Source: a bacterium (GTDB lineage Bacteria; Patescibacteriota; Minisyncoccia; Minisyncoccales; CG1-02-41-26). Taken from it: a stretch of DNA of 64,000 bases. Under the pieces are notes generated by a model. The model searched no databases, was not told the origin of the DNA, and worked only from the letters and a program-made list of their open reading frames with translations. The stretch lies in contig JAUVXX010000002.1 of NCBI GenBank assembly GCA_030603395.1, positions 79,807 to 143,806 on the forward strand, read 5' to 3'. Below, piece by piece: positions 7,943 through 55,246 of the stretch (positions are counted from its first letter, which is position 1; every line of letters begins with the position of its first letter). The translations under genes and the position numbers were made by a program.

Positions 7943-8052
7943 TAAAAATCCAAATGACAAAATCCAAATGACAAAAATACTTTTTTATTTGACATTTAAA
8001 CATTTGACATTGATTTGACATTGATTTGACATTTGACATTTGGGCTTTGGAT
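7943..8052. repeat. composite repeat spacer: 2x AAATCCAAATGACA, then 5x TTTGACA(TT..) and TTTGGAT units
   Basis: aaatccaaatgaca aaatccaaatgaca ... tttgacatttaaaca tttgacattga tttgacattga tttgaca tttgaca tttgggctttggattt. The left 14-mers are approximately the reverse complement of the right end (TGACATTTGG..TTTGGATTT), giving an imperfect long hairpin. Confidence 0.8.
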
Positions 8053-18743: not shown

Positions 18744-20462
18744 CTAAAATTTAATTGTCTCTCCGGGCTCTATCTTTCCTCTCTTGCTGGTTTTTGATTC
18801 TCCCTCCCTGTCTATATCCTCCAATGATTCTTTCAAGACCTTTTTTAATTCCTCCTTCTCTACCCCCTTTCTCTCTTTTTTACCCGACGGAGCTTCAGCG
18901 GATAAAGAGGCGGGTGGCTCTTTTTTACCAGAAAAAGTAGTTGGTCGGCGCAATATAAGGTCTTCCAAAGAAACAGTGGCAATCTCCTCTTCCTCCTTGT
19001 TTTCAGAAGAGTGTTCATCTCTCTTCCTAGACTCGTTCTCGGGGTGTCCTTGAGTATTTTTTTTAAAACAGACCTTGCAGTAAACGGGGCGGCGGATATC
19101 CGGCTTAAAGGGAACTTTTGTCCACTTGCCACACTTTTGGCATTTGGCATCAAAGAGCTCTATCTCAGAAACCCGAGGTTTTTCCTGCAAAACATAATTG
19201 CCAGTCCAGCGAGCGATTTTTTCTTCAACGATTTGGCGCGAAGTAGTGTATTTCTCTCTGGAAAAGGTGATAATTTTTTCGCTTTGGCTCTTCTCAGTCC
19301 TTTCAAAGGGAGGAAGGGTTTGGGCAGAGAAGGGTCTGCCGGCAACCCCATCTACCATTAATTTTAAATAAATCTGATATTTTGGCAAATTGACCAAATC
19401 CTGGGCATAAAATTCCGGGGAGAATTCTTTTTCCAGATATTCAGCGTCCTCAGCGCCCACCCGAAAAGAAACCAGGGTGCCGATGTTACCAAAAACAGCG
19501 TCTCTGACCGGCTCTTCCATCTGGGTAATATACTGGTGAGCCAAAATCAGACACAACCTGTATTTTCTGGCTTCAGATAAAATATTGACGAAACTCTCGG
19601 TGGCGAAATTCTGGAATTCATCAACATACAAAAAGAAGTCTTTTCGCTGTGACTCAGGGACATCCACCCTTGACATAGCTGCTAACTGAATTTTAGTTAT
19701 CAAAAGTCCTCCCAGGAGTTTTGAGGTATTCTCCCCTATTCTCCCCTTGGATAAGTTCAAAATCAAAATCTTTCCCTCATCCATGACCTTCCTCATATCA
19801 ACCGAGGAGGTGGTTTGCCCGATAATGTTTCTAATCAGGGGAGCGGAAATAAACTGCCCCACCTTATTCTGAATGGCCGCCGTTGCCTCTGACTCTAATC
19901 TTTGGGTATACCTGGCAAATTCCTGAATCCAAAATGCCTTGATGACCGGGTCGGTAATTTTGTCCACCACTTTTTTCCGATAGTCGGGGTCAGCCAACAT
20001 CCGATTAATTCCCAATAAGGTTGAGCCGGGGTATTCCAAAAGCGCCAGGATGGAATTATTCAAGATATACTCCATGCGGGCAGACCAAACATCAGGCCAG
20101 ATTTTCTTAAAAACCCCCATCAAGCCAGAAGCCACCAGATGACGTTGAGTCATTTCAACTTCCTCCATGACGTTGAAACTAATGGGGAAATCCGAATCAG
20201 CCGGGTTGAAATAGACCACATCCTTAACTCGGTTTTTGGGGATAAAATCTAAAAGTTCTTCAGCCGCTTCTCCGTGGGGGTCAACAAAGCCGACTCCCTT
20301 GCCGTCTCTGATGTCCTGGATAGCCATGTTTTTTAAAAGTTCGGTTTTGCCCATGCCGGTTTTTCCCACCAGGTAAAGATGCCTGCGTCTGTCGTCAAGC
20401 TTAATGCCGAATTTTTTTCTCTCATTACGGAAGGTGGTGTTGGCAAAAAAATTGGTCTCCAT
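18744..20462 (-). CDS. TraD/VirD4 (type IV coupling protein)-like P-loop ATPase with C-terminal CxxC...CxxC zinc ribbon and acidic/Lys-rich tail
   Basis: Walker A is VGKTGMGKTELL and the Walker B-like segment is FFLYVDEFQNF. ARKYRLCLILAHQY is typical of the TrwB/TraD/FtsK-HerA clade. A C-terminal CQKCGKWTKVPFKPDIRRPVYCKVCFKK follows. Confidence 0.65.
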   Translation of the reverse strand: METNFFANTTFRNERKKFGIKLDDRRRHLYLVGKTGMGKTELLKNMAIQDIRDGKGVGFVDPHGEAAEELLDFIPKNRVKDVVYFNPADSDFPISFNVMEEVEMTQRHLVASGLMGVFKKIWPDVWSARMEYILNNSILALLEYPGSTLLGINRMLADPDYRKKVVDKITDPVIKAFWIQEFARYTQRLESEATAAIQNKVGQFISAPLIRNIIGQTTSSVDMRKVMDEGKILILNLSKGRIGENTSKLLGGLLITKIQLAAMSRVDVPESQRKDFFLYVDEFQNFATESFVNILSEARKYRLCLILAHQYITQMEEPVRDAVFGNIGTLVSFRVGAEDAEYLEKEFSPEFYAQDLVNLPKYQIYLKLMVDGVAGRPFSAQTLPPFERTEKSQSEKIITFSREKYTTSRQIVEEKIARWTGNYVLQEKPRVSEIELFDAKCQKCGKWTKVPFKPDIRRPVYCKVCFKKNTQGHPENESRKRDEHSSENKEEEEIATVSLEDLILRRPTTFSGKKEPPASLSAEAPSGKKERKGVEKEELKKVLKESLEDIDREGESKTSKRGKIEPGETIKF

Positions 20463-20467
20463 AAAAA

Positions 20468-20480
20468 GATATTTCGATAT
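20468..20480 (-). promoter_or_regulatory. 13-mer GATATTTCGATAT (second copy) in the 24-nt spacer upstream of the TraD-like ATPase ATG
   Basis: Identical to 10398-10410. On the coding strand, ATATCGAAATATC ends 5 nt before the ATG at 20462. Confidence 0.5.
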
Positions 20481-20486
20481 GTCCTT

Positions 20487-21782
20487 CTATTCCGTGGGAA
20501 TAGGAGGTGGGCCGCCTTTTTTAGCTCCAATGCGGGGCACTCCCGGGGCGGGAGCCGCCAGTCTGCCCGGGAAATGAAATAAAGTGGCTAATTCTTCAAT
20601 ATTTAAAATGAATCTTCCGTTCTGGCTGGGATAAGGGGGATCTCTGGGATATAAGGGAGGAACCCTCTTAATATATTTTCGGAGTGTTCTTCTGCTTCTT
20701 AGATAAACCCTTCTCTTGGGCAAGAACCATTCCACCCTGGGAAAGGTTTTTTTCCAGGGTTTCAAACCATTAAGATTTTCAGTGGAAATTCCCTTAAAAA
20801 AACCGAAGGCAATTCGAGCCTTTGGCTTAAAAAAGACGTCTCTCTTGGCAAGATAAATACAGCGGACATTCGTGTAGTAACCGACCATGGCAATTTTATC
20901 CTCAATCCCCTTGACAATGTCCCGTTCTCCCGGAGTCAAACGCATTTCCGGGGGAATGATCGGCGCTTCCTTTTCTTCTTCCTCATAGGGTGCTTTGCCG
21001 CTGATTAAAACTCGGGCTGCCTCCCCCACCATTGATTTGGGTTTGGGTTCATCGGGTCTTTTAACAAGTTTAGCAACGATTTTTTTTCCCTCTTTTGCCC
21101 AGGGAATTTCTTCCCTGACCGGCATAATTCTAAACTGAACCCAGAGTTGCTCCCCTGCTTTTAAAATAGTCATTCCTTCAAGCAGTCCTGCCAGCGGGGT
21201 AATTCTTTTTTCCTCCGGGGTTAAGGGCATTTCTTCAAAGGCTCTGTAGGTCCTGATGGGATAGGGACTCTTATTAGAATTAATCATGTCCCAACCAAAA
21301 ACGTTCCATTCCTTGTTGGGAATATTCTGGGGAACGTTCTTGGCATAGTCTTCGACCTGAGATATTTCAGCTTCGGGAAATTGAGCGTAGATGTTTGACT
21401 CAATAATTTCTCGAAATGGCTCGGGCGTTCTTATGAAGAAGTGGACTTCCCCTCCGATACTGACAATCTCCAAGCTTAGGGAAAGCTGAAATTGCCCCTC
21501 AAACCATTTTTGTCTCCAGGTGATAATATCGTGTATCCCATGGAAACCGGCAAAAACCTGCTCCATGGATTGGATAAGCCGGGGGACTTCTTCGGGAATT
21601 TTGATTTCCAGTATTATCTTTTTAATGGTGTCGTCCCACTTTCCCTGGACATACCAGAGATAGTGGAATTTAAGAAAGGGAAAAAGAATGATGGGTAAAA
21701 GAACCCACCACCAAACTTTGAGGACCTGCCAAAAGATATTTAAGATTAAAACTATTGGTTCAAATGGAAAGAAATCAGACAT
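20487..21782 (-). CDS. hypothetical membrane protein (two N-terminal TM helices), partner of the TraD-like ATPase
   Basis: 431 aa with an N-terminal IVLILNIFWQVLKVWWWVLLPIILFPFL. The large soluble domain ends in LNIEELATLFHFPG and a Pro/Gly tail. I recognise no motif. It lies 24 nt upstream of the ATPase. Confidence 0.5.
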   Translation of the reverse strand: MSDFFPFEPIVLILNIFWQVLKVWWWVLLPIILFPFLKFHYLWYVQGKWDDTIKKIILEIKIPEEVPRLIQSMEQVFAGFHGIHDIITWRQKWFEGQFQLSLSLEIVSIGGEVHFFIRTPEPFREIIESNIYAQFPEAEISQVEDYAKNVPQNIPNKEWNVFGWDMINSNKSPYPIRTYRAFEEMPLTPEEKRITPLAGLLEGMTILKAGEQLWVQFRIMPVREEIPWAKEGKKIVAKLVKRPDEPKPKSMVGEAARVLISGKAPYEEEEKEAPIIPPEMRLTPGERDIVKGIEDKIAMVGYYTNVRCIYLAKRDVFFKPKARIAFGFFKGISTENLNGLKPWKKTFPRVEWFLPKRRVYLRSRRTLRKYIKRVPPLYPRDPPYPSQNGRFILNIEELATLFHFPGRLAAPAPGVPRIGAKKGGPPPIPTE

Positions 21783-21802
21783 TAAAAATTAAGGCCTTAA
21801 AA

Positions 21803-22828
21803 TCAGGCCTTTTTTAGGATGTACTTTCCTTCTTTGTTTTTCAAAAAGTAATTTTTATCAGTTAAATTCAAGAGGATGGTATTTTCTTTAACCAATCTTT
21901 GCTCAAGAACTCTTTTTAAAATTTCTTCCTGAGAAAGGGGCTTGACTTTCTCTCCTAAGATTTTTTTGATAACGTCTTTGACGGTGCCTGTTTCATAGCC
22001 CCACTCCCGTAAAGCATAAATCCCCCTGCCCACCAAGACAAATCTTTCATCCCGAATTAATTCATTGTGAACTGTTTGGGGAAGGACCTGGCTTTTTAGA
22101 AAAAACTTCCCGGTAAGATTTCCTGAATCTTCAGCGATTTTTCTGAAATGCAAGGGTTTCCCTGTCTCTTTCAAAACCAAATAAGCTCTGTCTTTTACTC
22201 CCCTTGGCTTGATTTCTGGCCAGACCGTCAAGCCATAATCTCCCATTGGTCCTTTTTCAATTTTCTTGGCAATTTCAAGGGAAGAGAGAGTGACCCGAAA
22301 GGACTCTTTCCCTTTACCGAAAGAAGAGAGGAGCTTCTCCTCTGAAACAGAGACTGCTACTTGTTCTAATTTTTTTAAAAGTTTTGCTAAAATTACTCCG
22401 ACCTCTCGAGAAAGATTTTGGTCAATTGTCCAAAAAGGATAGAAATCTTCGGTCTCTGGATAACGGAAGAAGGCATCTCCCAAATTTAAAAGGAAATGGA
22501 CTTGATTCTGGGAACGCTCTTCCCCCAAATCTGCCAAGAGAATATCTTCTCTCTTTAAGCCCCCTCGATTTTTAAGATGCTCTTTGAAATGAGAGAAAAC
22601 TCTCTTGAGGTCGTCTTCGGCTTTTTGCTCTTCCAATCCAAAGAAGCCGTCATTTTCAATCTGGCGAATTCTCTCCCTGGTTACCCCAAAATCGTGACCA
22701 ATGGCTTCCAGGGTTTCCCTTTTTCCAAAATCTCCCAACCCAAATCTTCTCTCCATAACTTCTTGCTGTCTTTGGGTCAAGGGATTCAAAACCTTCTGAC
22801 AAATTTTTGAGAAATTGAATTGTGGCAT
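21803..22828 (-). CDS. sigma-70 region 4-like HTH protein with C-terminal HARE-HTH/winged-helix-like domains
   Basis: [45 protein letters not shown] is a classic sigma region 4.2 / LuxR-like HTH. Later, [10 protein letters not shown]...[17 protein letters not shown] resembles the HARE-HTH of RpoE-delta-like proteins. Confidence 0.55.
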
Positions 22829-22836
22829 GTTGTCCT

Positions 22837-22865
22837 ATTTAAGCATAATGAAAACTAATTGTCAA
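22837..22865 (-). promoter_or_regulatory. candidate promoter (-35 TTGACA, 17 nt, -10 TTAAAT) only 8 nt upstream of the ATG; the transcript may be leaderless
   Basis: The minus strand reads TTGACAattagttttcattatgcTTAAATaggacaacATG. Confidence 0.4.
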
Positions 22866-28257: not shown

Positions 28258-29148
28258 TCAAGCATTAAAGTATTGAATTTCTTCTTTGAGCTCAACGTTA
28301 AATTTATTTTTTACTTCTTTTTTGATTAAATTTATCAAACTCAAAACGTCTTTTGCCTGAGCTCCATCTAAATTAACGATAAAATTAGCGTGTTTCTCAG
28401 AAATCATAGCTCCCCCGCTTTTTCTTCCCTTCAACCCGCATTTTTCAATTAATTCCCCGGCTGAAACCCCTGAAGGATTCTTAAAAATACAGCCAGCCGA
28501 AGGAAATTTTAGAGGATGATTTTTCTCTCGGTAATCTAAAAAATGTTTTATCTCTTGCTCAATTTCCTTTGCCTTTCCCGGCTTCAGTTGGAGGATACAA
28601 GAAAGGATGATAAGATTTTTGTTTTTTTTAAAGATAGTTTCTTTGTAGCCAAAGTTGCAACTTTTTGCTTCAATATTTTTAATTTTTGATTCAGAGACAT
28701 CAAATACCTCTACACTTTTTACAACATCTGCCATCGAGTTGTCAAAAGCGGCAACGTTATTGTGAACTGCTCCTCCGACTGTGCCTGGGATGCCAGCCGC
28801 CCATTCAAGACCGGTCAAATTATTTTTTGCTGCCAATTTCACCAAATCACCTAATTCTGCTCCTGTCTCAGCTTCAATAATTTTGACATTTGACATTTTG
28901 TTTTGACATTTGACATTTGACATTTGACATTTTATCACTAATCCATTATATCCCTTATCCGAAACCAATAAATTGCTTCCTCCTCCCAAAATAAAAAAGG
29001 GCAACTTAGCGCTTTGGGCAAACTTTATTGCCTTTATTAATTCTTCTTTGCTTTTAGCTTGAAAAAAATACTTCGCCCTTCCCCCAATTTTAAACGTTGT
29101 ATAATTTTTTAACGGGATATTTTTCTGAATTCCCGGAAGAAGTTTCAT
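28258..29148 (-). CDS. murB: UDP-N-acetylenolpyruvoylglucosamine reductase MurB (carries an in-frame heptamer-repeat segment)
   Basis: It has the FAD-binding N-terminus NYTTFKIGGRAKYFF, then ILGGGSNLLV, GLEWAAGIPGTVGGAV and a C-terminal SAGCIFKNP...ISEKHANFIVN. Confidence 0.9.
   Translation of the reverse strand: MKLLPGIQKNIPLKNYTTFKIGGRAKYFFQAKSKEELIKAIKFAQSAKLPFFILGGGSNLLVSDKGYNGLVIKCQMSNVKCQNKMSNVKIIEAETGAELGDLVKLAAKNNLTGLEWAAGIPGTVGGAVHNNVAAFDNSMADVVKSVEVFDVSESKIKNIEAKSCNFGYKETIFKKNKNLIILSCILQLKPGKAKEIEQEIKHFLDYREKNHPLKFPSAGCIFKNPSGVSAGELIEKCGLKGRKSGGAMISEKHANFIVNLDGAQAKDVLSLINLIKKEVKNKFNVELKEEIQYFNA
28883..28930. repeat. (TTGACAT)2-tttgtt-(TTGACAT)4 tandem heptamers inside murB
   Basis: Perfect units span 28883-28896 and 28903-28930. 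The tract is 48 nt in total and is translated as KCQMSNVKCQNKMSNVK. Confidence 0.9.
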
Positions 29149-51340: not shown

Positions 51341-53086
51341 TTAAATTGATTTAATTTTAATTTTTGGGGGTTTCTTTTGCTGAACAGAAACATTCATCTT
51401 AACCAAATCTTTATTTTCATCCAATAATTGACAAATGTCATAGACATTAAAATATTCTTTCTTTTTTGACAGAATGCGAAATATCTTTGTTACTAATTTA
51501 AAATCTTCTTTGGTATCAACGGTAACCCGATATTGGGGTCGAAAAATATCTGGGTCCTCAACTTTAATAACATCACACTTAAATATACCGGGTTTCCTAA
51601 AATATGGTCCCCAGATTTCAGTATCTGAAGAATCTTTTAAATCACATACTTTCTCGAGAGCATTTTTAGAAACAGCATATGCCCCGCAACCAAGAGGTAA
51701 TCCTTTGATTTCACAAAAATCAAACTTCTCTCTAAGATATCTCTCAATCATTTTTTCTATAAAAATAGGTTCTACAAATGGATCGTCCGCAGTTATACTT
51801 ATAATCAAATCTACGTCAAATTTTCGAGCACAATCCCTCATCCGAAGCAAAACATCTTCTTCGCTACCTCGAAAATACTTTATGTCTTTTTTCTTGGTAA
51901 TTTTAATTAATGGGTTGTCCTGAGGATTAGTTGAAGTCATCATTACTACGGGAGTAATATGGCAATGCTTTAATCTGTCAATCATCCACCCAACTATTGG
52001 TTTGCCTAAAATCGGCTTTATGATTTTAAGGGGAAGCCGTTTTGATTTTAATCTGGCAGTTATAAATATGCCAACCTTGGGAAGCTCTCTCTTTTTGATT
52101 GGTTCAAATCTTTCATAAGACAGCCTTGACTTTTTATTAAGTAATGATTTTAACCGGCTGCCAGAAATTTCTCCTCTTTTTGCTCTCATTACTGCTAAAT
52201 TATCCTTACCAAAATTCTGGCCAGCCTTAATATCCTTTTTAGCTACAACTTTCATTAAGGACTTGTACTTTCTGTAGCGGAGTTCATCAGGAGAAACCTC
52301 ATTTACTTTCTTATCAAGGATTTTACCAGCCATTCTAATATTTTTTACAAAATCAGCAAATTCATCCGGATTTAAAGCAGCTTCATAATCGTGGCCTTTC
52401 AGGGCTCTGTTGTGAGTAATATGCTTCTCAGTAATAGAAGCTCCTTGCGAGATAGCCAAAACCGGTAAATAAGTAGAGGCAGAAGATATGGGCTCTGAAT
52501 GGTCCTGATAGCCCCAGGGAAGATTTAATTTTTGGGATAATTCCCGGATAAAATTAAGATTAATGCCTTGAGGCCTTGTGGGAAAATTTTGCAACCCATA
52601 CATTAGATGAATCTTGGCTTTTTTATTAACAGAGTAGATAAATTTTAGGATTTTTTCTATTCCTTCTTTTCCCATTCCCCCAACCGACAAATGAATTTCC
52701 TTTTTTGACTTGACTACCTCTCGGATTAGATCCTTGTTTTCTAAATTGGATGAATGAAATTTAAATCCTTTAATAGGTTTGTTTCTGCAAAATTTAGCGC
52801 TCTCTAAGTCATAAACATTAGCCCAAACATCTAAGTGGAGAGTATTAGCTTTCTTTATAAGTTTTGCCCATACTTTTTGATTTAAGTAGAAGCTTTTTAT
52901 ATTTTTATAGTCCTCGTCTTGAGGAATAATATAGGTCGCAAGGTCAATCAATTGAAATAAAATTCCATCGGCTCCGGCTAAAGAAGCAGATTTAATAATA
53001 AATTCAGCAATTTTGGCATCTCCCTCATGAGAAGAAGCCATTTCCGCCAAAATATATGTAAATGTTTTTTTATCTTTTATTTGCAT
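51341..53086 (-). CDS. fusion protein: NeuB/SpsE-like synthase (with SAF domain) plus cytidylyltransferase (SpsF / CMP-NulO synthetase-like)
   Basis: The N-terminal ~340 aa read FTYILAEMASSHEGDAKIAEFIIKSASLAGADGILFQ...GYQDHS...SAF (VVAKKDIKAGQNF...MRAKRG). The C-terminal ~235 aa read GIFITARLKSKRLPLKIIKPILGKPIV...YFRGSEEDVLLR...ITADDPF, which is the CTP_transf_3 family. Confidence 0.75.
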   Translation of the reverse strand: MQIKDKKTFTYILAEMASSHEGDAKIAEFIIKSASLAGADGILFQLIDLATYIIPQDEDYKNIKSFYLNQKVWAKLIKKANTLHLDVWANVYDLESAKFCRNKPIKGFKFHSSNLENKDLIREVVKSKKEIHLSVGGMGKEGIEKILKFIYSVNKKAKIHLMYGLQNFPTRPQGINLNFIRELSQKLNLPWGYQDHSEPISSASTYLPVLAISQGASITEKHITHNRALKGHDYEAALNPDEFADFVKNIRMAGKILDKKVNEVSPDELRYRKYKSLMKVVAKKDIKAGQNFGKDNLAVMRAKRGEISGSRLKSLLNKKSRLSYERFEPIKKRELPKVGIFITARLKSKRLPLKIIKPILGKPIVGWMIDRLKHCHITPVVMMTSTNPQDNPLIKITKKKDIKYFRGSEEDVLLRMRDCARKFDVDLIISITADDPFVEPIFIEKMIERYLREKFDFCEIKGLPLGCGAYAVSKNALEKVCDLKDSSDTEIWGPYFRKPGIFKCDVIKVEDPDIFRPQYRVTVDTKEDFKLVTKIFRILSKKKEYFNVYDICQLLDENKDLVKMNVSVQQKKPPKIKIKSI

Positions 53087-55229
53087 GAGAGATTACGCAA
53101 TCTTTTATCTCGGCAAAATCGTCGTAATATTTTGATGAAGGGTTATTCAGGGAACTTAAAAACTGAGCTTTTGGCTTTGGAAAAAATATTTTTGTTCTTA
53201 TGTATAATGACCTAAGTTTTCCATATAGGCTATCGGGTAAATTTAAAAAATTAAAAATATCTCGTATTCTATTTTTTAGAAAACATTTAAAATCATTGGG
53301 GTAGTTTTTCTTTAAATAGATAGCCATTGCATCATCAATCACCTTTTTTGATTTCTCTATGTCTAACTGAGATTTTTTACTTAAGTGAATTGCTAAGCAT
53401 TTTTTGAACTTAGCATATTTTTCATGATAACTACCTTCCTTGATAAATTCAGGAATATCTTCATTTCTGATACCTGCTGAATCAGGGATTATTTCCCGGG
53501 CAGTATAAAGCACATCTAAACATTTCATTTTACCGCATATCAATGCAAACATAGAGGGTAAAAGTTCAGCAAACCGTTCATCATCTGTGAATTTCAACAT
53601 TTCTTTAAAAATCATTTTCAAAAATTCAGTTTGGTGAACACCAAAAAGAGTTACCACTGAATAATCTGATAAATGTTTAAATAATCTCAATTTTGGGTCT
53701 TCAAAAGTAATTGATTCAGTTAAACATCCAGATGTTAAATAAAATTGTTTTTTTCCGCTCTTTTTAGTTTTTAAATAGAAAGATATGTGATTGCCGTAAA
53801 CAACCGTAAAATCAGGGTTATTTTCGAGAAAATCAACAGCTCGTTTAATGCCTTTCGGAGTAACAAAATCATCATCGGCACAAAATAAACAATATTTAGT
53901 TTTAGCATAATTTACGGCGTCAGCGGCCTGATGGCGAAACTTATCAAGCTTCTCTGAATAATGATTGAGGTATAAAATGTCTAAATCCAAGAAAGAAGAA
54001 ATAATTTCTTTATTTTTTGTTTTATTTTCATCCGAGCTGGAATCTGAAACAATGAGCTTAAAATCATTTTTATATTCCCTGTAATAATCAATGAGTCGTC
54101 TTAGGCAACCTGGACGGTTGTGGGTTATGATTATGATGGTAGCTTTTATCATTTTATTATTTTTTATTGCATGAGACATTATACAAGTTCGTATCTTATT
54201 AAAATCTTTGTAATATTCGGTCGGCAGGTCATTTGTTGAAGTTGAATTTGAATAATTATTATCTTTTTTGGGTAAAGAAAACAGCCGCCGATATAATAAA
54301 CTTATTTTTTTATATATCCAATCAGGCATATTTAACTTGTGTAAAATATTTGCCACTCCCATTATTAAAAAATGATAAGGGTTTATGTATACAGACATAG
54401 CTTTATCAACTATCCTTTTTGATTTCTCTATTCCTAATTGAGATTTTTTGCTTAGGTGGGTCGCCAAACATTCTCTAAACTTAATGTATTTCTCGTCATA
54501 AGTACCCTCCCTAATAAAATCGTCCATAGTTTTTGCCCTACTAGTTGCACAATCAGGAGTTACTTCCCTGACTCCATAAAGCACGTCTAAAGATTCCATT
54601 TTCCCATGTATTAAGGCAAGCATAGATGGTAAAAGTTCGCCAAATCTTCCATCATTTGTGAATTTTAATGTCTCTTTAAAAATCATTTTAAAAAAATCAG
54701 TTCGGAGAACGCCGAAAATGGTTACCGAATAATTTGATAAATATTCAACTAATCTCGATTTTGCTTCTGGAAAAGTAATTGATTTATGTAAATATATAGG
54801 AGCCCAATAAAATTGCTTCTTTCTACTCCTTTTAGTTTTTAAATAGAAAGAAACATAATCGCCGTGGGCGACTGTAAAGTCAGGGTTATTTTCGAGAAAA
54901 TCAACAGCTTGTTTAATACCTTTCGGAGCAATAAAATCATCATCGGCACAATATATGCAGTATTTGCTTTTGACATAATTTGAAGCATCAAGGAGCTGAT
55001 GATGGGCTTCATTACTTCCATGGGAGGAATCGCTATGGTAATTAACATATAAGATGTCTGAATCTAAGAAAGAAGAAATAGTTTCTTTATTTTTTGTTTT
55101 ATTTTCATCCGAGCTGGAATCTGAAACAATTATCTTAAAATCATTTTTATATTCCCTGTAATAATCAAGGAGTCGTCTTAGATGACCTGGACGGTTATGG
55201 GTTATGACTATAATGGTAGCTTTTATCAT
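53070..55229 (-). CDS. tandem-duplicated GT-A-like glycosyltransferase, two ~360-aa paralogous units fused in one ORF
   Basis: Unit 1 (55229-54153) and unit 2 (54152-53070) both start MIKATII(V/I)ITHNRPG.LRRL.DYYREYKNDFK.IVSDSSSDENKTKNKE. Unit 2 begins with its own ATG at 54150-54152. The first ~150 nt of the two units are more than 90% identical by hand alignment, and the rest is much more diverged. Confidence 0.65.
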   Translation of the reverse strand: MIKATIIVITHNRPGHLRRLLDYYREYKNDFKIIVSDSSSDENKTKNKETISSFLDSDILYVNYHSDSSHGSNEAHHQLLDASNYVKSKYCIYCADDDFIAPKGIKQAVDFLENNPDFTVAHGDYVSFYLKTKRSRKKQFYWAPIYLHKSITFPEAKSRLVEYLSNYSVTIFGVLRTDFFKMIFKETLKFTNDGRFGELLPSMLALIHGKMESLDVLYGVREVTPDCATSRAKTMDDFIREGTYDEKYIKFRECLATHLSKKSQLGIEKSKRIVDKAMSVYINPYHFLIMGVANILHKLNMPDWIYKKISLLYRRLFSLPKKDNNYSNSTSTNDLPTEYYKDFNKIRTCIMSHAIKNNKMIKATIIIITHNRPGCLRRLIDYYREYKNDFKLIVSDSSSDENKTKNKEIISSFLDLDILYLNHYSEKLDKFRHQAADAVNYAKTKYCLFCADDDFVTPKGIKRAVDFLENNPDFTVVYGNHISFYLKTKKSGKKQFYLTSGCLTESITFEDPKLRLFKHLSDYSVVTLFGVHQTEFLKMIFKEMLKFTDDERFAELLPSMFALICGKMKCLDVLYTAREIIPDSAGIRNEDIPEFIKEGSYHEKYAKFKKCLAIHLSKKSQLDIEKSKKVIDDAMAIYLKKNYPNDFKCFLKNRIRDIFNFLNLPDSLYGKLRSLYIRTKIFFPKPKAQFLSSLNNPSSKYYDDFAEIKDCVISHANKR

Positions 55230-55246
55230 TTATTTATTAAAAAGGA

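What the first reader, a model, noticed from the sequence alone, without database searches (positions are those of the whole stretch)
18744..21782. Orphan TraD/VirD4-like ATPase with zinc ribbon plus a dedicated membrane protein, embedded among housekeeping genes
The 572-aa ATPase has Walker A (GKTGMGKT), Walker B (YVDEFQNF) and a coupling-protein-like core. Unusually, it ends with a CxxC-N17-CxxC zinc ribbon and a charged tail.

It lies 24 nt downstream of a 431-aa protein with two N-terminal TM helices and no recognisable domain. The pair sits downstream of a sigma-region-4/HARE-HTH gene and upstream of pgk.

I see none of the usual companions in the window: no VirB4, relaxase, pilin, integrase or other T4SS/conjugation gene, and no compositional break. 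A minimal two-component membrane-anchored DNA (or nucleoprotein) translocase in a reduced genome would be functionally interesting, for example for DNA uptake or exchange with a host. To my knowledge it is uncharacterised.
Basis: partly seen in the sequence, partly recalled or inferred. Interest (0 to 1): 0.55.

Follow-up and report, generated by a model that had tools for sequence, protein, structure and literature searches.

The report
Split coupling-protein ATPase of Patescibacteria
The two genes encode the two halves of one membrane-tethered motor protein of the conjugation 'coupling protein' family; this motor is a strongly conserved core gene of the ultra-small Patescibacteria, other lineages make it as a single chain, and its cargo is still unknown.

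Summary
In detail: the ORFs, Walker motifs, CxxC-x17-CxxC ribbon and 24-nt spacer are all present, and the window holds no T4SS genes.

It is not an oddity of one genome.
- The 431-aa protein belongs to Pfam DUF8128. The ATPase follows it directly in 78 of 80 species genomes.
- In Berkelbacteria, Gottesmanbacteria and relatives the orthologue is one 726-963-aa chain. That chain equals DUF8128 plus the ATPase head to tail, so the window holds a gene fission.
- Bacillus phage G gp156 (PHROG 5156) is a related fusion.

The ATPase is VirD4/TrwB-type (hhalign 97%, Foldseek TM 0.62) and has no membrane anchor of its own. The best structural matches of the DUF8128 model are all VirB4 (TrwK); sequence profiles do not detect this.

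Patescibacteria carry two paralogues. In Southlakia epibionticum, published Tn-seq calls type A essential. The probable orthologue of this pair (type B) is non-essential but is slowly depleted.

One type-B gene lies beside a virB4/pilin cluster. My best reading is therefore an accessory coupling or energising ATPase of the chromosomal T4SS (confidence 0.45). The main rival is a T4SS-independent nucleic-acid translocase (0.3).

Orphan T4CP homologues in Patescibacteria were catalogued in 2025. The DUF8128 partner, the fission and the two paralogues were not found in the searched literature.

The parts
21803..22828 (-). Conserved upstream neighbour: a 341-aa protein with sigma-70 region 4 (residues 14-62) and a HARE-HTH domain (residues 211-276).
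   Evidence: Pfam Sigma70_r4 at 1.9e-11 and HARE-HTH at 2.4e-11. It lies directly upstream of DUF8128 in 79/80 genome loci and in L085. In S. epibionticum the same architecture, SEML1_0294 (essential), precedes the 921-aa T4CP-like SEML1_0293. It is absent from this position in L087 and in the fused-gene loci.
22837..22865 (-). Promoter-like site (TTGACA, 17 nt, TGcTTAAAT) 8 nt before the start codon of the sigma/HARE gene. It may drive the three-gene unit.
   Evidence: Read directly from the sequence. It is not in the consensus scan list because the -10 element departs at position 2. This is an inference only.
21791..21811 (-). Hairpin AAGGCCT-loop-AAGGCCTT followed by a T-rich run. It overlaps the stop codon of the sigma/HARE gene and ends 9 nt before the DUF8128 start codon.
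   Evidence: Terminator-like hit with 7 pairs and the sequence itself. Function was not tested; it could lower read-through into the pair.
20487..21782 (-). Gene for the DUF8128 protein (431 aa), the detached N-terminal module of the motor.
   Evidence: More than 2000 homologues, most carrying PF26449. 2509 clusters at 50% identity. Aligns to residues 1-376 of the fused orthologue P0419. hhalign to the phage G gp156 N-terminus gives 96.8% probability, E 2.5e-10. PHROG 5156 positions 76-210 are matched.
21642..21761 (-). Membrane anchor (residues 8-47; hydrophobic core at residues 10-45, with a nearly invariant K22 and WWW at 24-26).
   Evidence: Kyte-Doolittle scan, AF2 long helix at residues 8-52, conserved columns. 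The fused orthologues P0419 and P0423 have a single TM at residues 2-35; P0464 has none.
20565..21626 (-). Cytoplasmic alpha/beta domain (residues 53-406). It ends in the junction motif EELATLFHFPG (20565-20597).
   Evidence: AF2 model with pLDDT 73 and pTM 0.74. The top 13 Foldseek PDB hits are all TrwK/VirB4 chains (E 2.4e-5 to 7.5e-4, probability 0.99-1.0, TM 0.30-0.35); the next hit is at E 8.6e-3. The motif is conserved in the fused proteins and in gp156, and it resembles the L098 VirB4 'SLATTFPF' sequence upstream of Walker A.
20490..20564 (-). C-terminal tail of DUF8128 (residues 407-431, ...KKGGPPPIPTE). This is the former inter-domain linker.
   Evidence: It matches the linker ...KKGEPPANLPIE of the fused P0419 and P0423, which runs straight into the ATPase N-terminus.
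20463..20486 (-). 24-nt spacer at the fission point between the two halves.
   Evidence: The fused orthologues have about 12 residues here.
18744..20462 (-). Gene for the soluble T4CP (VirD4/TrwB)-type ATPase (572 aa).
   Evidence: Pfam. hhalign to TrwB gives 93.5%, rising to 97.1%, E 5.6e-11 over 321 columns with a broader profile. Foldseek: TrwB TM 0.62 and rmsd 4.9, HerA E 2e-11, Cag-beta, DotL. Median identity across the 71 of 80 loci with an HSP covering at least 60% of the query is 70%, against 61% for SecA. No TM segment.
20343..20366 (-). Walker A motif GKTGMGKT (residues 33-40).
   Evidence: G33, K34, T35, G36, G38 and K39 are invariant in 32 homologues; M37 and T40 vary. Coordinates.
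19779..20153 (-). All-alpha insertion (residues 104-228). It corresponds to the all-alpha domain of TrwB.
   Evidence: AF2 helices at residues 104-228 lie between core strands. The region lies within the stretch aligned to TrwB, which runs from Walker A to Walker B.
19605..19628 (-). Walker B motif YVDEFQNF (residues 279-286). It is followed by the invariant R299 and Q310, which align with TrwB GRKAG and GLQS.
19068..19142 (-). CxxC-x17-CxxC treble-clef zinc ribbon (residues 441-465).
   Evidence: zf_Tbcl_2 at 1e-13 and TIGR04272 at 6e-14. The four Cys are invariant. The CxxC pattern was not found in the fused orthologues checked.
18747..19067 (-). Low-complexity charged tail (residues 466-572). 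It carries two short conserved motifs (SLEDLIL-R-P-FS and terminal G-IEPGETIKF), likely docking motifs.
   Evidence: Alignment A2. pLDDT is below 50. The docking role is an inference by analogy with T4CP C-terminal tails (my own knowledge of TraD-TraM and DotL adaptors).

Best explanation
SHOWN.
- The two genes encode the N-terminal and C-terminal halves of one conserved Patescibacteria protein.
- The N-terminal half (DUF8128) is a membrane anchor plus a roughly 350-residue cytoplasmic alpha/beta domain.
- The C-terminal half is a VirD4/TrwB-type P-loop ATPase. Its Walker A, Walker B, Arg and Gln residues are intact. It has an all-alpha insertion, a C-terminal zinc ribbon and a charged tail.
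- In other classes the orthologue is a single chain in exactly this order. In the Paceibacteria-type lineages (the close relatives of the window sampled, plus L085 and L087) the gene is split in the linker.
- Patescibacteria carry two paralogues, A and B. The window pair is type B.

INFERRED.
- The DUF8128 subunit tethers a ring (probably a hexamer) of the ATPase to the inner face of the membrane.
- Its VirB4-N-terminal-domain-like fold lets it dock onto the inner-membrane platform of the chromosomal patescibacterial type IV secretion system. This would resemble the way the VirB4 N-terminal domain docks onto VirB3 and VirB8.
- The ring uses ATP to recruit and feed a substrate (protein, DNA or nucleoprotein) into that machine. 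The zinc ribbon and tail act as the substrate or adaptor receptor.
- Type A would be the essential partner of the T4SS. Type B (this pair) would be an accessory one, for a second substrate class or condition.
For: Pairing and fission:
- Adjacent on the same strand in 78/80 species genomes and in the distant loci L085 and L087.
- About 90 single-chain proteins carry PF26449 + PF10412.
- The alignment is colinear: DUF8128 residues 14-426 match P0419 residues 1-376, and ATPase residues 2-493 match P0419 residues 389-875. The junction is seamless.
- PHROG 5156 matches both halves. hhalign against phage G gp156 gives 96.8%.

T4CP identity of the ATPase:
-.
- A rough NJ tree puts types A, B and gp156 next to TrwB, with VirB4 further out.

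VirB4-like N-terminal module:
- The top 13 Foldseek hits are all TrwK.
- A shared pre-Walker-A motif is seen.

Link to the T4SS:
- The type-B P0464 is divergently adjacent to a PrgI/TraC-like/VirB4/M23 cluster with a T4SS pilin gene nearby. It lacks its own TM.
- The literature reports 148 T4CP genes near virB4. The Southlakia T4SS cluster lacks a recognisable coupling protein.

Strong purifying selection:
- Median identity is 70% for the ATPase and 61% for SecA.

Tn-seq in Southlakia:
- SEML1_0142 (type A by synteny with L093) is essential.
- SEML1_0293 is 921 aa and has the sigma/HARE gene upstream as in the window. It is called non-essential, but its reads fall 5817, 2940, 1372 over T0-T2 while its neighbours stay flat.
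Against: - No T4SS gene lies within the 64-kb window. Only 148 of 5,713 patescibacterial T4CP homologues are near virB4.
- T4CP homologues occur in 96% of genomes but VirB4 in 80%. Two copies per genome plus MAG incompleteness could explain this gap (my inference).
- The probable Southlakia orthologue is dispensable although the T4SS is essential.
- The VirB4-like fold rests on one medium-confidence model (pLDDT 73, TM 0.30-0.35). Profile comparison with TrwK, TrsE or TrsD does not see it.
- The orthology of SEML1_0293 is inferred from synteny, Pfam domains and a 379-residue offset, not from its sequence.
- No physical interaction, oligomeric state or substrate has been tested.
Confidence: 0.45

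Rival explanations
1. T4SS-independent housekeeping nucleic-acid translocase. The membrane-tethered ring would pump DNA or RNA on its own or with another channel. Examples: a motor for DNA uptake through ComEC, a role in chromosome or plasmid handling at the membrane, or nucleic-acid scavenging from the host.
For: - The ATPase is the most conserved gene in its neighbourhood, more conserved than SecA.
- It sits in a housekeeping block (secA-secDF-...-pgk-rnhA-murJ) that is syntenic across species.
- Its zinc ribbon is of a type annotated as a treble-clef finger. I did not test any nucleic-acid link for this domain.
- A DNA-binding HTH protein is encoded directly upstream in several classes.
- The phage relative CP-51 gp91 sits next to a Replic_Relax protein.
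- T4CP homologues are more prevalent than VirB4.
- Relaxases are nearly absent from Patescibacteria.
Against: - The probable Southlakia orthologue is not essential, so it is not an indispensable segregation motor.
- Nothing here links the pair to comEC or to division genes beyond general proximity.
- The zinc ribbon is missing from the fused orthologues checked.
- One type-B gene is next to a T4SS.
Confidence: 0.3
2. Motor associated with protein export or membrane-protein handling, working with SecDF. For example, it could extract or deliver pilins or secreted proteins, as proposed for VirB4 as a pilin dislocase.
For: - secD-secF lie next to type-B genes in at least five distinct arrangements: Paceibacteria, L085, L087, Berkelbacteria-type L096 and L097 and L100.
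- The N-terminal module has a VirB4-like fold.
Against: - In L096, L097 and L100 secDF is convergent, so it is not co-transcribed.
- The tgt-...-secDF order looks like inherited synteny.
- There is no SecDF near the gene in Southlakia or in L098.
- The ATPase domain is of the DNA-coupling type.
Confidence: 0.07
3. Anti-phage defence module (a HerA- or MADS-type ATPase with a membrane effector).
For: - The PADLOC mad8 model hits the ATPase (2.5e-15, 54.8 bits), with weak HerA hits.
- Foldseek also finds defence-associated HerA complexes at E around 1e-7.
Against: - No other MADS or HerA-partner gene (methyltransferase, nuclease, SIR2) lies nearby.
- The locus has fixed synteny and is near-universal, with 70% identity. 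That is the opposite of a variable defence island.
- The hits are explained by shared superfamily membership.
Confidence: 0.04
4. Remnant of an integrated conjugative element or prophage.
For: - Relatives exist in Bacillus phages (G gp156, CP-51 gp91, SPO1-like phages) and as PHROG 5156.
- T4CPs are typical of mobile elements.
Against: - No integrase, relaxase, repeats or GC shift at the locus.
- The chromosomal position is identical in 78/80 species.
- No relative of DUF8128 was found in IMG/VR with clade patterns, nor by tblastn in phage genomes.
- Identity to the phage proteins is only about 25-28%.
Confidence: 0.03

Closest known systems
Type IV coupling proteins (TrwB of R388, VirD4, TraD, Cag-beta, DotL)
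   Same: - P-loop nucleotide-binding domain with an inserted all-alpha domain.
- Walker A and B motifs, plus Arg and Gln that align with TrwB GRKAG and GLQS.
- hhalign 97% over 321 columns; Foldseek TM 0.62, rmsd 4.9 A.
- Pfam TrwB_AAD_bind and TraG-D_C score above cut-off.
   Different: - No transmembrane segment on the ATPase chain.
- The N-terminal module is a roughly 400-residue DUF8128 domain instead of a short TM hairpin, and here it is a separate polypeptide.
- A C-terminal zinc ribbon is present.
- There is no relaxase or Dtr partner.
- It is a chromosomal, vertically inherited and highly conserved core gene.
- Scores are far below the NCBIfam TraD/VirD4 equivalog cut-offs.
VirB4 ATPases (TrwK of R388; the split TrsD + TrsE of pGO1; patescibacterial TraC-like + VirB4)
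   Same: - The overall plan is a roughly 400-residue N-terminal domain followed by a RecA-type ATPase of the same superfamily.
- The best structural matches of the DUF8128 model are all TrwK chains.
- A similar motif ('LAT-x-F/H-P') lies about 50 residues before Walker A.
- An N-terminal piece encoded as a separate gene also occurs in monoderm VirB4 systems.
   Different: - The ATPase domain is clearly closer to T4CPs than to VirB4.
- There are no hits to the AAA_10, P-loop_TraG or CagE_TrbE_VirB models.
- Sequence profiles do not detect similarity of the N-terminal domain.
Bacillus phage G gp156, PHROG 5156 and related proteins of SPO1-like phages
   Same: - A single chain with DUF8128 and then the T4CP-like ATPase.
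- Both window proteins match the PHROG profile in order.
- hhalign for DUF8128 gives 96.8%; tblastn for the ATPase gives E 8e-38.
- gp156 itself carries PF26449.
   Different: - The phage protein has an internal rather than N-terminal hydrophobic segment.
- No CxxC-x17-CxxC pattern was found in gp156.
- Identity is about 25-28%.
- It is encoded next to a VirB4-like ATPase (gp155).
- Its function is also unknown.
Southlakia epibionticum SEML1_0293 and SEML1_0142 (Wang et al. 2023, PMC10633639)
   Same: SEML1_0293:
- 921 aa, with TrwB_AAD_bind, TraG-D_C and DUF87 domains starting at residue 402.
- The Sigma70_r4 + HARE-HTH gene lies directly upstream, as in the window.

SEML1_0142:
- It shares synteny with the DUF8128-carrying type-A protein P0450.
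   Different: - Both are single-chain proteins.
- I could not read their sequences, so orthology and the DUF8128 content of SEML1_0293 are inferred.
- The Tn-seq phenotypes differ: type A is essential, while the probable type-B orthologue (SEML1_0293) is non-essential with gradual depletion.
HerA / FtsK translocases
   Same: - Same FtsK-HerA superfamily.
- HerA gives the lowest Foldseek E-value (2e-11).
- The DUF87 model scores above cut-off.
   Different: - No NurA-type partner.
- No FtsK_SpoIIIE or gamma-domain match.
- The TM-score is better with TrwB.
- A TrwB-type all-alpha domain is present.

Membership tests
Type IV coupling protein (VirD4/TrwB/TraD) | P-loop nucleotide-binding domain with Walker A, Walker B and the conserved Arg and Gln | tested here: met
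   In 32 homologues the Walker A residues G33, K34, T35, G36, G38 and K39, the Walker B residues D281-F286, and R299 and Q310 are all invariant, and they align to the TrwB motifs.
Type IV coupling protein (VirD4/TrwB/TraD) | All-alpha domain inserted in the nucleotide-binding domain | tested here: met
   Helices at residues 104-228 in the AF2 model. The region lies within the stretch aligned to TrwB residues 118-393. Pfam TrwB_AAD_bind scores 41.6 bits against a cut-off of 20.5.
Type IV coupling protein (VirD4/TrwB/TraD) | N-terminal transmembrane domain on the same polypeptide | tested here: not met
   The ATPase has no hydrophobic segment. The anchor is on the separate DUF8128 protein; it is in cis in the fused orthologues P0419 and P0423.
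Type IV coupling protein (VirD4/TrwB/TraD) | Genetic linkage to a relaxase/Dtr module or a T4SS | tested here: not met
   None in the 64-kb window. It is met for one type-B relative, P0464, which lies beside PrgI/TraC-like/VirB4. The rest of the genome is not available.
Type IV coupling protein (VirD4/TrwB/TraD) | Score above the curated full-length family models (NCBIfam TraD/VirD4 equivalogs) | tested here: not met
   Best hit is SXT_TraD at 46.9 bits against a cut-off of 366. CD1115 VirD4-like scores 28.4 against 250.
Type IV coupling protein (VirD4/TrwB/TraD) | Hexameric ring with DNA-stimulated ATPase activity that is required for substrate transfer | not testable with these tools
   Needs biochemistry and genetics.
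VirB4 ATPase | VirB4-type N-terminal domain | tested here: inconclusive
   The top 13 Foldseek hits of the DUF8128 model are all TrwK (E 2.4e-5 to 7.5e-4, TM 0.30-0.35). hhalign to TrwK, TrsE and TrsD is negative. Only the junction motif is shared.
VirB4 ATPase | VirB4-type C-terminal ATPase domain (AAA_10, P-loop_TraG, CagE_TrbE_VirB models) | tested here: not met
   No such Pfam hit at E up to 1. hhalign to TrwK covers the P-loop only. VirB4 is the most distant group in the tree.
Pfam DUF8128 (PF26449) | Match to the family model | tested here: met
   Indirect. The model is absent from the local Pfam copy. PF26449 is pre-computed on most homologues that are 51-77% identical to the window protein and on the syntenic genes in L001, L085 and L087.
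PHROG 5156 (phage fused DUF8128-ATPase) | Both halves match the profile in order | tested here: met
   DUF8128 matches positions 76-210 (6.4e-9). The ATPase matches positions 407-806 (8.2e-65) of the 824-position profile.
HerA helicase/translocase | HerA core plus a partner nuclease (NurA or a defence effector) | tested here: not met
   DUF87 scores 25.8 bits against 23.2, and Foldseek finds 4d2i at E 2e-11. No nuclease partner is in the neighbourhood, and the TM-score is better with TrwB.
FtsK/SpoIIIE | FtsK_SpoIIIE motor and gamma domain | tested here: not met
   No Pfam or NCBIfam hit.
MADS defence system (mad8) | Presence of the other MADS genes | tested here: not met
   Only the ATPase hits mad8. 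The neighbours are secDF, the sigma/HARE gene, pgk, a DHH protein and rnhA.

The most novel reading that the evidence does not exclude
DUF8128-ATPase proteins (types A and B of Patescibacteria, plus the phage G/PHROG 5156 group) would be a previously unrecognised third branch of the VirB4/VirD4 motor family. This branch would keep a VirB4-type N-terminal domain on a VirD4-type ATPase, making it an evolutionary intermediate between the two signature T4SS ATPases. Within it, the type-B paralogue (this pair, with its zinc ribbon and its sigma/HARE-HTH neighbour) would act independently of the T4SS as a housekeeping nucleic-acid import or export motor of these host-dependent cells.
Probability: 0.2. 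Interest if true: 0.8.

Novelty: new variant of a known kind. Interest (0 to 1): 0.55.

Why it matters
Patescibacteria make up a large share of bacterial diversity and live attached to host cells. Their chromosomal T4SS is essential in the one genetically tractable species (PMC10633639). Yet its substrate, and how it is energised, are unknown, and no coupling protein was recognised in the cluster.

This analysis shows that the 'orphan' T4CP homologues noted in 2025 are a defined family with a large, VirB4-like N-terminal module (DUF8128). It also shows that they come as two ancient paralogues, and that in many lineages one of them is split into the gene pair seen here.

This yields concrete, testable candidates for the missing T4SS partner ATPases, and a Rosetta-stone argument for a protein complex. 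It also shows an unusual domain combination that bears on how VirB4 and VirD4 diverged.

The same module in Bacillus jumbo phages and SPO1-like phages is unexplained.

Tried and rejected
- Profile comparison of DUF8128 with TrwK, TrsE and TrsD found nothing significant. A broader 265-sequence profile matched only the P-loop and junction region.
- The local Pfam copy gives no hit for DUF8128, even when all 28 alignment members are scanned at E up to 10.
- The PDB sequence search with the DUF8128 profile found nothing.
- tblastn of DUF8128 against phage genomes gave no match. The IMG/VR scan with clade patterns found no relative.
- hhalign of DUF8128 against the CP-51 gp91 N-terminus was negative, so only phage G-type proteins are demonstrably fused relatives.
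- The exact-sequence look-up of the window ATPase's contig was not on record.
- R388 was not retrievable under accession BR000038; NC_028464 was used instead.
- Literature searches for DUF8128, for HARE-HTH with Patescibacteria, and for the SEML1 locus tags returned nothing.
- The defence reading (PADLOC mad8) and the mobile-element reading were considered and rejected on context.
The only recurrent short motif seen is a (TTTGACA)n repeat elsewhere in the window.

Full report
**1. Observation**

- On the minus strand the window encodes, in order:
  - a 341-aa Sigma70_r4 + HARE-HTH protein (21803-22828);
  - a 431-aa protein (20487-21782);
  - after 24 nt, a 572-aa ATPase (18744-20462);
  - after 6 nt, pgk.
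- The ATPase has Walker A GKTGMGKT (residues 33-40) and Walker B YVDEFQNF (residues 279-286). It also has a CQKC-x17-CKVC ribbon (residues 441-465) and a charged tail.
- Pfam TrwB_AAD_bind, TraG-D_C, DUF87, T4SS-DNA_transf and zf_Tbcl_2 all pass their cut-offs. TIGR04272 also matches.
- The rest of the window is housekeeping genes and a polysaccharide cluster. I scanned 10 selected ORFs against Pfam and read the others from their translations. On that basis I saw no VirB4, relaxase, pilin or integrase.
- GC is flat at 0.42-0.43 around the locus.
- The description is therefore accurate, with two corrections:
  - The 431-aa protein belongs to Pfam DUF8128 (PF26449).
  - Its hydrophobic N-terminus is one 36-residue stretch that may cross the membrane once or twice.

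**2. The ATPase is a coupling-protein-type motor**

- By sequence, the nearest solved structures are TrwB and DotL.
- A profile of homologues aligns to TrwB from Walker A through the all-alpha domain to Walker B. Probability is 93.5% with alignment A2. It rises to 97.1%, E 5.6e-11 over 321 columns, with a broader profile.
- The pGO1 VirD4-like TrsK gives 95.8%. A patescibacterial VirB4 gives 83%. TrwK matches at the P-loop only.
- The AF2 model (pLDDT 70) matches HerA, TrwB, Cag-beta and DotL. The best TM-score is with TrwB (0.62, rmsd 4.9 A). No VirB4 appears in the top 50.
- R299 and Q310 are invariant and align with TrwB GRKAG and GLQS.
- The chain has no transmembrane segment. This is unlike canonical coupling proteins (my knowledge of TrwB, VirD4 and TraD).

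**3. The membrane protein**

- DUF8128 has more than 2000 homologues in the word-indexed search. An exhaustive search finds 2509 clusters at 50% identity.
- No paper in the library mentions the family.
- The AF2 model (pLDDT 73, pTM 0.74) shows a long N-terminal helix followed by two alpha/beta units.
- The 13 best Foldseek PDB hits are all TrwK/VirB4 chains from the R388 T4SS. E runs from 2.4e-5 to 7.5e-4, probability is 0.99-1.0 and TM is 0.30-0.35. The next hit is at E 8.6e-3.
- Sequence profiles do not recover this similarity. There is one exception, a motif just before Walker A. DUF8128 has LN-x-EELATL-x-HFP; a patescibacterial VirB4 has NMDTTSLATTFPF. In both the motif lies about 50 residues upstream of the P-loop.
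- I treat the VirB4-N-terminal-domain likeness as a supported structural resemblance, not as proven homology.
- The context adds weight. An uncharacterised protein encoded directly before a VirB4/VirD4-superfamily ATPase has, as its best fold match, the N-terminal domain of the sister ATPase.

**4. The two genes are one unit**

- A scan of species-representative genomes found at least 571 genomes with a close DUF8128 relative.
- In the 80 best loci the ATPase follows on the same strand in 78. One exception is a contig end. The other, L076, has an intact DUF8128 followed directly by pgk.
- The pairing persists in more distant lineages where the downstream genes differ: rpiB in L085, and an ECF sigma factor in L087.
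- PHROG 5156 is an 824-position profile. DUF8128 matches positions 76-210 and the ATPase matches positions 407-806.
- Bacillus phage G gp156 (825 aa) is such a fusion.
- Searching with gp156 returned about 90 single-chain proteins of 725-1142 aa carrying PF26449 + PF10412. Named sources are Berkelbacteria, Falkowbacteria, Saccharibacteria and Gottesmanbacteria.
- The window proteins align to these head to tail. DUF8128 residues 14-426 match P0419 residues 1-376. ATPase residues 2-493 match P0419 residues 389-875, at 52% identity.
- At the junction the fused sequence reads ...KKGEPPANLPIE-ENVPSGELTVFAKTDYRHMSHNFGIKINDRRYH. That equals the DUF8128 C-terminus (...KKGGPPPIPTE) followed by the ATPase N-terminus (METNFFANTTFRNERKKFGIKLDDRRRH).
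- The window therefore holds a gene fission in the inter-domain linker. The reverse event, a fusion in the other lineages, cannot be excluded.

**5. Two paralogues, and what genetics says**

- A rough NJ tree of the ATPase cores gives two patescibacterial clades.
  - Clade B contains the window, the other split forms, and the fused P0419, P0421, P0423, P0425 and P0464.
  - Clade A contains P0450, P0429 and the upstream copies in L096, L097 and L099.
  - gp156 lies outside both clades. TrwB comes next, and VirB4 is furthest.
- In L096, L097 and L099 the two paralogues are in tandem, each preceded by a small protein of unknown family.
- The published census found 5,713 VirD4-type T4CP homologues in 2,918 of 3,035 Patescibacteria genomes. 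Only 148 are near virB4, and VirB4 is present in 2,417 genomes. The authors note that the T4CPs may have been exapted.
- Southlakia Tn-seq tables:
  - SEML1_0142 is 1019 aa and is essential. Its neighbourhood (small ORF, the gene, a hypothetical gene, an adhesin, gyrB, gyrA) is the same as that of the DUF8128-carrying type-A protein P0450.
  - SEML1_0293 is 921 aa and its TrwB_AAD_bind domain starts at residue 402. That is a 379-residue offset from the window ATPase, about the size of DUF8128.
  - SEML1_0293 lies directly after SEML1_0294, an essential Sigma70_r4 + HARE-HTH protein, as in the window.
  - SEML1_0293 is called non-essential. Its normalised reads fall 5817, 2940, 1372 over T0-T2 while its neighbours stay level.
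- I infer that SEML1_0293 is the fused type-B orthologue. I could not read its sequence.

**6. Contexts**

- The type-B P0464 (Gottesmanbacteria, 726 aa, no TM) is divergently adjacent to a cluster of PrgI, TraC-like, VirB4 and an M23 peptidase. A T4SS pilin gene lies nearby.
- secD-secF flank type-B genes in five different arrangements. This could be inherited synteny of a tgt-...-secDF block.
- The sigma/HARE-HTH gene precedes the pair in Paceibacteria, in L085 and in Southlakia. It does not do so in L087 or in the tandem loci.
- Across the 80 close loci, counting only those where the best HSP covers at least 60% of the query, the ATPase is the most conserved gene of the block. Median identities are:
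  - ATPase 70% (71 loci);
  - SecA 61% (only 25 informative loci);
  - RNase H 58.5%;
  - SecD 57%;
  - PGK 47.5%;
  - DUF8128 45%.

**7. How it most likely works**

- Shown: this is a two-chain version of a membrane-anchored T4CP-type ATPase with intact catalytic residues.
- Inferred:
  - DUF8128 tethers a ring of the ATPase to the membrane and docks it to the T4SS inner-membrane platform through its VirB4-like domain.
  - The ring recruits and drives a substrate into the T4SS. The zinc ribbon and tail act as the receptor.
  - Type A is the essential partner and type B an accessory one.
- I give this reading 0.45.
- The main rival (0.3) is a T4SS-independent nucleic-acid translocase. It is favoured by the extreme conservation, the housekeeping context, the zinc ribbon, the upstream HTH protein and the near absence of relaxases.
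- The prevalence gap (96% against 80%) is weak evidence either way. Two gene copies are more likely than one to be caught in incomplete MAGs (my inference).
- The defence reading (mad8 hit), the mobile-element remnant reading and the SecDF-linked reading are less likely, for the reasons given under rival explanations.

**8. Known or new**

- It is published that Patescibacteria carry T4CP homologues away from virB4 (PMC12102498). The Southlakia genes have Tn-seq calls (PMC10633639).
- The following points were not found in the searched literature:
  - the DUF8128 partner and its VirB4-like fold;
  - the fission/fusion relationship;
  - the two paralogues;
  - the phage relatives.
- I class the finding as a new variant of a known kind.

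**9. Limits**

- The source genome beyond the window could not be read, so its T4SS content is unknown.
- Both structure models are of medium confidence.
- The tree is a quick distance tree.
- Paralogue assignment in Southlakia rests on synteny and domain coordinates.
- No interaction or activity has been tested.

Noticed in passing
window 7984-8049 and 28878-28935: Runs of the heptamer TTTGACA (TTTGACATTTGACATTTGACATTT...) occur twice. One lies in the intergenic region just upstream of ftsZ. The other lies inside the open murB-like ORF (28258-29148), where it stays in frame. They look like tandem -35-type hexamers or a simple-sequence contingency tract.
   Followed up: partly
window 28000-64000: GC drops from about 0.42 to 0.33-0.37 at roughly 28 kb. 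There a long minus-strand cluster of sugar-modifying, glycosyltransferase and O-antigen-ligase-like genes begins. It may be a laterally acquired surface-polysaccharide island.
   Followed up: no
window 53311-55238: An internal tandem duplication of about 1.07 kb (three repeat families, 73-91% identical) lies inside the 719-aa ORF at 53070-55229.
   Followed up: no
window 21803-22828; S. epibionticum SEML1_0294: The Sigma70 region 4 + HARE-HTH protein is a conserved neighbour of the pair. Its Southlakia counterpart is essential in Tn-seq. It also scores just below the cut-off of the RNA polymerase delta-subunit model (TIGR04567, 36.2 bits against 42). It could be a lineage-specific RNA-polymerase-associated factor.
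   Followed up: partly
L003-L082, L085, L087, L096, L097, L100: secD-secF lie next to the type-B DUF8128/ATPase genes in several lineages with otherwise different neighbours. In the tandem loci they are convergent and a tgt gene lies upstream. This could be ancient synteny or a functional link.
   Followed up: partly
L076 5959-8488: In this one species genome DUF8128 is intact (435 aa) but pgk follows it directly. No ATPase was found in the 13-kb locus. About 730 nt of unassigned DNA lie between the sigma/HARE gene and DUF8128.
   Followed up: partly
L096 6455-6991, L097 5013-5534, L099 2643-3167, L100 526-1035: A conserved protein of about 170 aa with no Pfam match lies immediately upstream of every fused type-B gene examined. 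It occupies the position that the sigma/HARE-HTH gene holds in the window. Type-A genes are likewise preceded by small ORFs of 106-159 aa; the Southlakia counterpart SEML1_0141 is called essential at T1-T2 and shows a growth defect at T0.
   Followed up: partly
L090 1223-5365 (Bacillus phage G) and L091 829-6314 (phage CP-51): In phage G the fused gp156 follows gp155, a VirB4-like ATPase (P-loop_TraG, AAA_10). In CP-51 the related gp91 is followed by a Replic_Relax protein, and an actin-like segregation protein (gp96) lies about 0.9 kb upstream with four small ORFs in between. These are T4SS-like or plasmid-like modules inside large Bacillus phages, and their function is unknown.
   Followed up: partly
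L082 (JQDQ01000042.1, labelled Smithella sp. SCADC): A contig filed under a deltaproteobacterium carries the typical patescibacterial block secF, sigma/HARE, DUF8128 and ATPase (68% identity for the ATPase). It is probably a mis-binned CPR contig. Many loci labelled 'uncultured Candidatus Saccharibacteria' also carry the split gene arrangement seen in the window's close relatives.
   Followed up: no
window 21791-21811: A terminator-like hairpin overlaps the stop codon of the sigma/HARE gene, 9 nt before the DUF8128 start codon. It might set a lower expression level for the pair than for the essential upstream gene.
   Followed up: no
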